From NCBI RefSeq assembly GCF_000002075.1, contig NW_004797516.1:773630-837629 (forward strand): a DNA stretch of 64,000 nucleotides, given 5' to 3'. A program made the position numbers and the translations under genes. Under the pieces are notes generated by a model. That model was given only the letters and a program-made list of their open reading frames with translations. It did not search any database and had not been told where the DNA came from. Below, in pieces: positions 14,023 to 14,060 of the stretch. This DNA is from Aplysia californica. Lineage: Eukaryota. The first letter of the stretch is position 1, and every line of letters begins with the position of its first letter.

Positions 14023-14060
14023 GTTCCTGAAGAAGCCCTTTACCGGGCGAAACGTCGAAC
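14023..14060 (+). ncRNA. Minimal type-I hammerhead ribozyme (Penelope-like type)
   Basis: GTTC-CTGAAGA-A-GCCC(TTTACC)GGGC-GAAAC-GTC-GAAC: stem I GUUC/GAAC, CUGANGA core, stem II GCCC/GGGC, GAAA, palindromic ACGU helix III, GUC cleavage triplet. Confidence 0.75.

What the first reader, a model, noticed from the sequence alone, without database searches (positions are those of the whole stretch)
14023..14060. Minimal hammerhead ribozyme antisense within an FN3K intron
Seen: all core elements of a type-I hammerhead on the + strand, with one extra A after the CUGAAGA core, a 4-bp stem II and a loop-less palindromic helix III (ACGU). Known: minimal hammerheads of this shape occur in the terminal repeats of Penelope-like elements and are thought to cleave as dimers. 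Inference: this is a solo Penelope-like repeat remnant (about 13870-14110) lodged between two (ATG)n tracts; only one complete copy is visible, so cleavage would need a partner in trans.
Basis: partly seen in the sequence, partly recalled or inferred. Interest (0 to 1): 0.7.

Follow-up and report, generated by a model that had tools for sequence, protein, structure and literature searches.

The report
Penelope hammerhead with swapped tails
This is the cut-off end of a known kind of jumping gene (Penelope-like) sitting backwards in an intron; its predicted self-cutting RNA motif is likely inert here, but related families in this genome have exchanged their ends at the predicted cut site, which may be a fossil trace of the motif cutting in living cells.

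Summary
The hammerhead motif is real (14023-14060) and lies antisense in the first intron of a fructosamine-kinase gene (a spliced contig confirms the intron). It is not a lone oddity: 13833-14130 is the 5'-truncated 3' end of a Neptune/Nematis-type Penelope-like retroelement (RT plus GIY-YIG), with 255 exact hammerhead matches genome-wide (control 0) and a compensatory change in stem I between families. Copies start and end in same-strand (ATG)n tracts, which exist without the element. Minimal hammerheads with the extra A are published for these elements, and this scan noted them in other genomes. This copy has no partner in view and is likely inert. The unexpected part: the window's 13-copy subfamily is a chimera, family-B body and ribozyme up to C17, then a family-A tail. 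Three clear swap types were found; all map between loop II and the tail, none in the four other intervals tested, and two short duplications start at the cut site. That fits cleavage followed by ligation or an RT jump, but template switching at the shared core is about as likely. Cleavage itself is untested.

The parts
13773..13832 (+). (ATG)n tract at the 5' junction (insertion target, upstream part)
   Evidence: 20 perfect copies; same-strand tract abuts the 5' end of many relatives
13833..14022 (+). Body: last ~190 nt of the 3' UTR of a family-B Penelope-like element, 5'-truncated
   Evidence: 91% identical over 226 nt to L062, where it follows a GIY-YIG frame; about 70% like family A
14023..14060 (+). 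Minimal type-I hammerhead; predicted cut after C14056; family-B loop II, N7 and C17
   Evidence: 255 exact pattern matches in the genome, control 0
14057..14064 (+). Junction: GAAC doubled (second copy carries a private A>G at 14063)
   Evidence: 12 exact matches with the unmutated doublet, 11 with a family-B and 1 with a family-A hammerhead
14061..14130 (+). Tail taken from family A (70 nt)
   Evidence: nearly identical to the tail of A1 copy L055, while B and A tails are about 64% alike
14131..14222 (+). (ATG)n tract at the 3' junction
   Evidence: 115 of 136 hammerhead copies have such a tract starting 45-110 nt after the cut site, 5 of 136 have CATCAT there
13426..16700 (-). First intron of a fructosamine-kinase (FN3K-family) gene, host of the insertion
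   Evidence: spliced contig X7 record 9 and its loose end; GT-AG ends
13264..13425 (-). First long coding exon of the FN3K-family gene
   Evidence: open frame with kinase N-terminal look; covered by the spliced contig; no Pfam hit on its own
16701..16731 (-). 3' part of the upstream exon that supplies the ATG (its 5' end not mapped)

Best explanation
The motif is a minimal hammerhead sequence in the 5'-truncated 3' end of a Penelope-like retroelement that sits antisense in an FN3K-family intron; it is predicted to cut only as a dimer and is likely inert at this locus. Shown: family membership, truncation, (ATG)n context, antisense position, chimeric build. Inferred working cycle: the element's GIY-YIG nuclease nicks an existing (ATG)n/(CAT)n tract; reverse transcription starts at the end of the 60-75 nt tail (possibly helped by pairing of the (CAT)n primer with (AUG)n in a read-through RNA) and usually stops early, leaving short 3' ends like this one. 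Because each copy ends in a new target, copies pile up in same-strand tandems where two hammerheads can pair through the ACGU palindrome and swap stem I strands. The ribozyme likely cuts some of these RNAs; rejoining at the cut (host ligase or an RT jump) would put one family's tail on another's body, as seen here. Odds: identity about 0.95; inert here about 0.85; cleavage as the cause of the tail swaps about 0.4.
For: ORF-UTR-hammerhead-tail continuity in L062, L065, L067; RVT_1 (29.3 bits, cut-off 29.6) and GIY-YIG (27.4, cut-off 22.6) in L061; DKG, CX4CxxC linker and CCHH motifs as defined in PMC8557442. 8 of 20 loci picked by protein alone carry their own hammerhead downstream of the frame, including the family with GCUC/GAGC stem I. 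With stem I left free, one stem I position reads U-A 40, C-G 39, U-G 6, A-U 1, other 5, C-A 0 of 91 (hand count). N7 and loop II vary freely while core and stems hold. Targets pre-exist: 28 of 30 copies of an RNase H-bearing LINE end in this tract, 2 of 30 with an intact hammerhead beside it. Tandems: L028, L033, L064, L069, L071, L072. Swaps: among 172 copies, family changes at loop II|tail in 35 of 108 classifiable pairs (B>A 14, C>A 18, A>D 1, 2 ambiguous) against 0 of 47, 0 of 70, 1 of 92 (a short, probably misclassified copy) and 0 of 95 at the other boundaries. The intervals overlap only at cut+0 to cut+2. A second, independent duplication (GAACA) starts at cut+1 in L198.
Against: No cleavage was measured. 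The active dimer (-17.9 kcal/mol) is not favoured over two monomers (-19.0) or the best cofold (-20.4). Stem II shows almost no double-sided change, and the stem I change is one inherited event. Published minimal hammerheads cut poorly (PMC4209133), and the Anolis element did not need cleavage for insertion in vitro and showed no RNA-seq ends at the site (PMC11167929). No pile of read ends at the site here either, in a weak test. The swaps are only three independent types; one family also has a junction about 105 nt upstream at an internal (ATG)4, excluded by my filter; 2 A-family copies carry C17, which weakens that marker; the GAAC doublet can also be read one base earlier. No full-length element with both terminal repeats was recovered, and none of the 13 subfamily copies reaches the reading frame.
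Confidence: 0.78

Rival explanations
1. Same element, but the tail swaps need no cleavage: reverse transcriptase switches template (or repeats recombine) at the GAAACGU-GAAC block, the first sequence shared by all families when copying from the tail, perhaps helped by stalling at stem I.
For: That block is 11-15 nt identical across families; tandems offer direct repeats for deletion; a non-hammerhead junction exists at an internal (ATG)4; cleavage was dispensable in vitro for the Anolis element. With two shared blocks of similar length, 3 of 3 swaps on one side has a chance of about 1 in 8.
Against: The equally long shared block 5' of loop II shows no clear switch; the window junction lies 3' of C17 and carries a duplication, which homology-guided switching does not favour; two duplications begin at the cut.
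Confidence: 0.45
2. The window's subfamily is a non-coding retrozyme-like parasite: a 700-800 nt unit amplified from a non-coding master by Penelope enzymes.
For: None of 13 copies reaches the reading frame and four start within about 45 nt of each other in the UTR; retrozymes are proposed to derive from such terminal repeats (bioRxiv 10.64898/2026.07.22.740005).
Against: No tandem array of this unit; 5' ends vary widely; the motif is minimal, not the canonical type of retrozymes (PMC7229834); 13 copies are too few to exclude plain truncation.
Confidence: 0.15
3. The copy has been co-opted by the host to regulate the FN3K-family gene through an antisense transcript.
For: Core and stems are intact; position in the first intron.
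Against: Intactness is explained by youth (96-98% identity to sister copies); reads over 14063 carry the sister allele in 10 of 10 (X21) and 10 of 11 (X23); antisense to the gene; no partner nearby.
Confidence: 0.03

Closest known systems
Minimal hammerheads (min-HHR) of metazoan Penelope-like elements (Cervera and de la Pena 2014, PMC4209133; parts 1-2 of 4 read)
   Same: Type I, 4-5 bp helix I, unpaired nucleotide between 9 and 10.1, G10.1-C11.1, palindromic 15.2-16.2 without loop 3, many families per genome, mostly single truncated copies; the paper proposes cleavage and circularisation.
   Different: Stem II here is short (3-5 bp; 7-8 bp in the Schistosoma examples); tail swaps at the cut site are not described in the parts read.
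Neptune/Nematis clades of C-terminal-endonuclease Penelope-like elements (Craig et al. 2021, PMC8557442; passages)
   Same: RT followed by CX2-5CxxC linker and GIY-YIG with CCHH; DKG motif; hammerhead near the end; microsatellite bias; partial tandems.
   Different: Target here is same-strand (ATG)n; the passages name (TA)n, (CA)n and (C)n for other clades. Neptune versus Nematis not resolved by a tree. The stretch after the ribozyme is 60-95 nt and near-constant, not an optional 30-40 bp tail.
Poseidon element of Anolis, PAc (Frangieh et al. 2024, PMC11167929; parts 1-2 of 4 read)
   Same: Copies end a fixed distance after the hammerhead cut site, matching internal initiation of reverse transcription; its ribozyme cuts only with protein.
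   Different: PAc cuts AT-rich DNA with no homology to the RNA start site and its hammerhead overlaps the start codon; here copies end in a repeat tract and no frame was seen after the tail.
Animal non-LTR retrozymes (PMC7229834, passages; bioRxiv 10.64898/2026.07.22.740005, parts 1-3 of 5)
   Same: Type-I hammerhead repeats related to Penelope termini; cleavage followed by RtcB-type ligation is shown for them.
   Different: They are short tandem non-coding units with canonical hammerheads; this is the end of a coding element with a minimal motif.

Membership tests
Minimal type-I hammerhead of PLEs | CUGANGA and GAAA-N-N-UH core with helix I and II | tested here: met
Minimal type-I hammerhead of PLEs | Extra nucleotide between 9 and 10.1; G10.1-C11.1; palindromic 15.2-16.2, no loop 3 | tested here: met
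   against PMC4209133; extra A in 147 of 148 hits when left free
Minimal type-I hammerhead of PLEs | Covariation among genomic families | tested here: met
   stem I U-A/C-G; one inherited event; stem II nearly invariant
Minimal type-I hammerhead of PLEs | Self-cleavage as a dimer | not testable with these tools
   only energies and a weak read-end test
Rfam hammerhead families | Score at the curated threshold | tested here: not met
   no hammerhead family listed up to E 10
Neptune/Nematis-type EN+ PLE | RT followed by C-terminal GIY-YIG in one frame, linked to this UTR | tested here: met
Neptune/Nematis-type EN+ PLE | CX2-5CxxC linker, CCHH, DKG | tested here: met
   L061, L135, L141 translations
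Neptune/Nematis-type EN+ PLE | Partial tandem / pseudo-LTR structure | tested here: inconclusive
   tandems seen but no full-length copy with both repeats
Neptune/Nematis-type EN+ PLE | Placement in an RT tree (Neptune versus Nematis) | not tested
   no reference set fetched
Non-LTR retrozyme | Tandem non-coding units with canonical hammerhead | tested here: not met
   single copy in the window; minimal motif; homologous to a coding element's UTR

The most novel reading that the evidence does not exclude
Penelope-like families in this genome exchange their 3' tails exactly at the hammerhead's scissile bond. The tail lies at the 5' end of a ribozyme-cut RNA, reverse transcription starts there on an (ATG)n target and crosses the cut by ligation or an end-to-end jump, and mixed dimers made possible by the shared stem I shuffle tails between families. 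The chimeras would be genomic proof that minimal hammerheads cut in vivo as a step of retrotransposition.
Probability: 0.38. Interest if true: 0.7.

Novelty: new member of a known kind. Interest (0 to 1): 0.4.

Why it matters
The motif itself is of a published kind. What the minimal hammerheads of Penelope-like elements do is open: they cut poorly in vitro, are called unclear in function (PMC8557442) and were dispensable for insertion in the one reconstituted system (PMC11167929). Junctions between diverged families give a record of where RNA templates were joined in the germline. If a full census confirms that they sit at the scissile bond, it supports the cleave-and-rejoin model and gives a cheap test that can be repeated in any genome with several families. 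Same-strand (ATG)n targeting, fed by LINE tails and by the element's own ends, would also explain how partner ribozymes come to lie in cis.

Tried and rejected
Rfam scans: no hammerhead model hit; these models do not cover the minimal form, so this is not counted against the motif. Fold z-score of the 56-mer was uninformative. Run search: no RNA holder listed. Reads laid over 11400-31300 were dominated by other repeats and did not show the FN3K junction. Strand of family reads: mostly minus; I first read this as hammerhead-sense RNA and dropped that, because the few FN3K exon reads also lie on minus and loose ends run into poly(A), which points to sense-oriented, oligo-dT-primed reads from antisense copies; the data say little about element transcription. 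L007 looked like a more-than-unit (rolling-circle) copy; rejected because an A-family frame lies upstream, so it is more simply an insertion behind another copy. An extended helix I predicted for this copy is not shared by the other families. Chance motif rejected. A-body copy L041/L200 with the doubled GAAC may be the donor or a back-swap; not counted as an independent swap. Literature searches for such swaps listed no paper on it by title or abstract start; Repbase, subscription journals and all supplements were not seen.

Full report
Observation. A relaxed pattern matches once in the window, against 0.01 expected. Rfam lists no hammerhead and the fold energy is ordinary; neither is surprising for a minimal motif. 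Fructosamine-kinase exons lie on the minus strand near 2669-2863, 8179-8286, 11540-11629 and 13264-13425. One contig of run X7 covers the last exon and continues into sequence found at 16702-16723; this gives a GT-AG intron 13426-16700 and an ATG at the end of the upstream exon. The motif is therefore antisense in the first intron. Two other loci of the kinase family exist in the genome, so I call the gene FN3K-family.

What the repeat is. Searching 13835-14130 against the 927-Mb genome gave 584 candidates, 40 scored. Eight places match the whole query at 95-100%; most others stop at the end of the hammerhead. A hammerhead pattern gave 255 exact matches, control 0. In L062, L065 and L067 the same sequence is the end of a 3' UTR that follows a GIY-YIG frame without a break. 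Related frames carry RT motifs, DKG, a CX4CxxC linker and CCHH, which PMC8557442 gives for Neptune and Nematis elements (passages); I built no tree. A protein search gave 756 candidates, 97 scored; of 20 of these loci fetched, 8 carry their own hammerhead downstream, and in many of the rest the expected place reads N. The window has no other fragment of these families.

Conservation. At least five families (my labels A-E) differ by 25-45% in the 40 nt before and 56 nt after the ribozyme but keep the core. With stem I left free, one pair reads U-A 40, C-G 39, U-G 6, A-U 1, other 5 and never C-A among 91 hits (hand count); this is one inherited compensatory change, also seen in copies picked by protein alone. 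Among 75 distinct sequences from 139 copies, N7 takes all four bases and loop II varies in length, while stem II shows almost no double-sided change; many of these loci were picked by patterns that fixed parts of the stems. All these traits match the minimal hammerheads of PMC4209133 (parts 1-2 of 4).

Target. An ATG-type tract begins 45-110 nt after the cut site in 115 of 136 copies, CATCAT in 5 of 136; (ATG)4 lies within 900 nt upstream in 83 of 136 against 3 of 136 for (CAT)4, the former inflated by an internal (ATG)4 in one family. 5' ends fall at many points of the UTR or frame and often abut (ATG)n. The tracts exist without the element: 28 of 30 copies of an RNase H-bearing LINE end in one, and 2 of 30 have an intact hammerhead beside it. 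Same-strand tandems of equal or different families are common.

Chimera. The window copy follows family B up to C17 and family A from 14061 on, with GAAC doubled at the join. Of 98 hits with the A tail, 13 have the B loop, 25 the A loop and 60 the C loop (hand count); the B tail goes with B-type loops in 50 of 50; the D tail with D-type loops in 87 of 88, the exception being L197, an A body with a D tail that includes the D-specific base at cut+3. Family C has its own tail in other copies. Classifying six segments in 172 copies, family changes occur at loop II|tail in 35 of 108 classifiable pairs (three clear types, two ambiguous copies) and in 0 of 47, 0 of 70, 1 of 92 and 0 of 95 at the other boundaries; unclassifiable and repeat-filled segments were left out, which hides the known junction at the internal (ATG)4 of the C-body family. 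The three intervals overlap only at cut+0 to cut+2. Tandem duplications of 4-8 nt within 40 nt of the site: GAAC (one lineage) and GAACA (L198) at the cut, two single cases and one family trait elsewhere, among 150 copies. The 13 subfamily copies are 96-98% identical to the window copy and none reaches the frame.

Mechanism. Shown: identity, truncation, target context, antisense position, chimeric build. From the literature: internal initiation of reverse transcription defines the copies' ends, and the Anolis ribozyme cuts only with protein and was not needed for insertion in vitro (PMC11167929, parts 1-2 of 4); cut retrozyme RNAs are circularised by RtcB (PMC7229834, passages). Inferred: two hammerheads pair through ACGU and exchange stem I strands; families A, B and C share stem I and could form mixed dimers, D could not fully; the active dimer is 1-2.5 kcal/mol less stable than the alternatives, in line with a need for protein. 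After cutting, the tail heads the downstream RNA, so rejoining across the cut links one family's body to another's tail. The rival, switching at the shared core without cleavage, predicts the same side of loop II if the enzyme switches at the first shared block; with three events I cannot separate them and put them near even.

This copy. It has no visible partner and is antisense to its host gene. Reads over the family are mostly minus-strand, as are the few FN3K exon reads, carry sister alleles at 14063, and show no pile of ends; the test is weak. The copy is likely inert.

Novelty. The motif is a new member of a known kind; the scan noted similar cases in other genomes, none by sequence. Tail exchange at the cut site was not in the listings, nor in the passages of PMC3846280 or parts 1-3 of 5 of bioRxiv 10.64898/2026.07.22.740005. 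Supplements, Repbase entries and Arkhipova 2006 (known only as cited) were not seen and could describe (ATG)n targeting or chimeric ends. Interest 0.4.

Noticed in passing
window 14311-14923: Long inverted repeat (arms 14311-14550 and 14685-14923, 87-90% complementary) whose outer ends are tRNA-like (Rfam tRNA 21.4 bits at 14315-14383): two tail-to-tail copies of a tRNA-derived SINE-like repeat in the same intron.
   Followed up: partly
window 7090-7560: Degenerate tandem array of ~30-nt units with a recurring CCCTGAAAAGGG-like core; gives a false loose hammerhead match at 7299.
   Followed up: no
window 10428-10618: GC-rich 55-bp tandem repeat, 3.5 copies, 95% matches.
   Followed up: no
L167-L196 (e.g. 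L171): Abundant LINE with an RNase H-like domain ending in (CAT)n; its tails serve as landing sites for the Penelope-like families.
   Followed up: partly
L221:643-775: Two C-type hammerhead ends joined tail-to-tail as an inverted pair, flanked by (CAT)n; the only such case I noticed among the copies printed.
   Followed up: no
L061, L068, L074, L135: A successful family is a three-part chimera: A-family frame and UTR, (ATG)4, C-family body and hammerhead, A-family tail; L135 keeps a 568-aa open frame.
   Followed up: partly
window 30529-33822 (minus): Exons of a gene with a BTB-like N-terminal part and C2H2 zinc fingers, by eye from translations.
   Followed up: no
L062:5240-6200 and relatives: The family-B 3' UTR carries a long internal (CTA)n/(CTG)n tract of variable length.
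   Followed up: no
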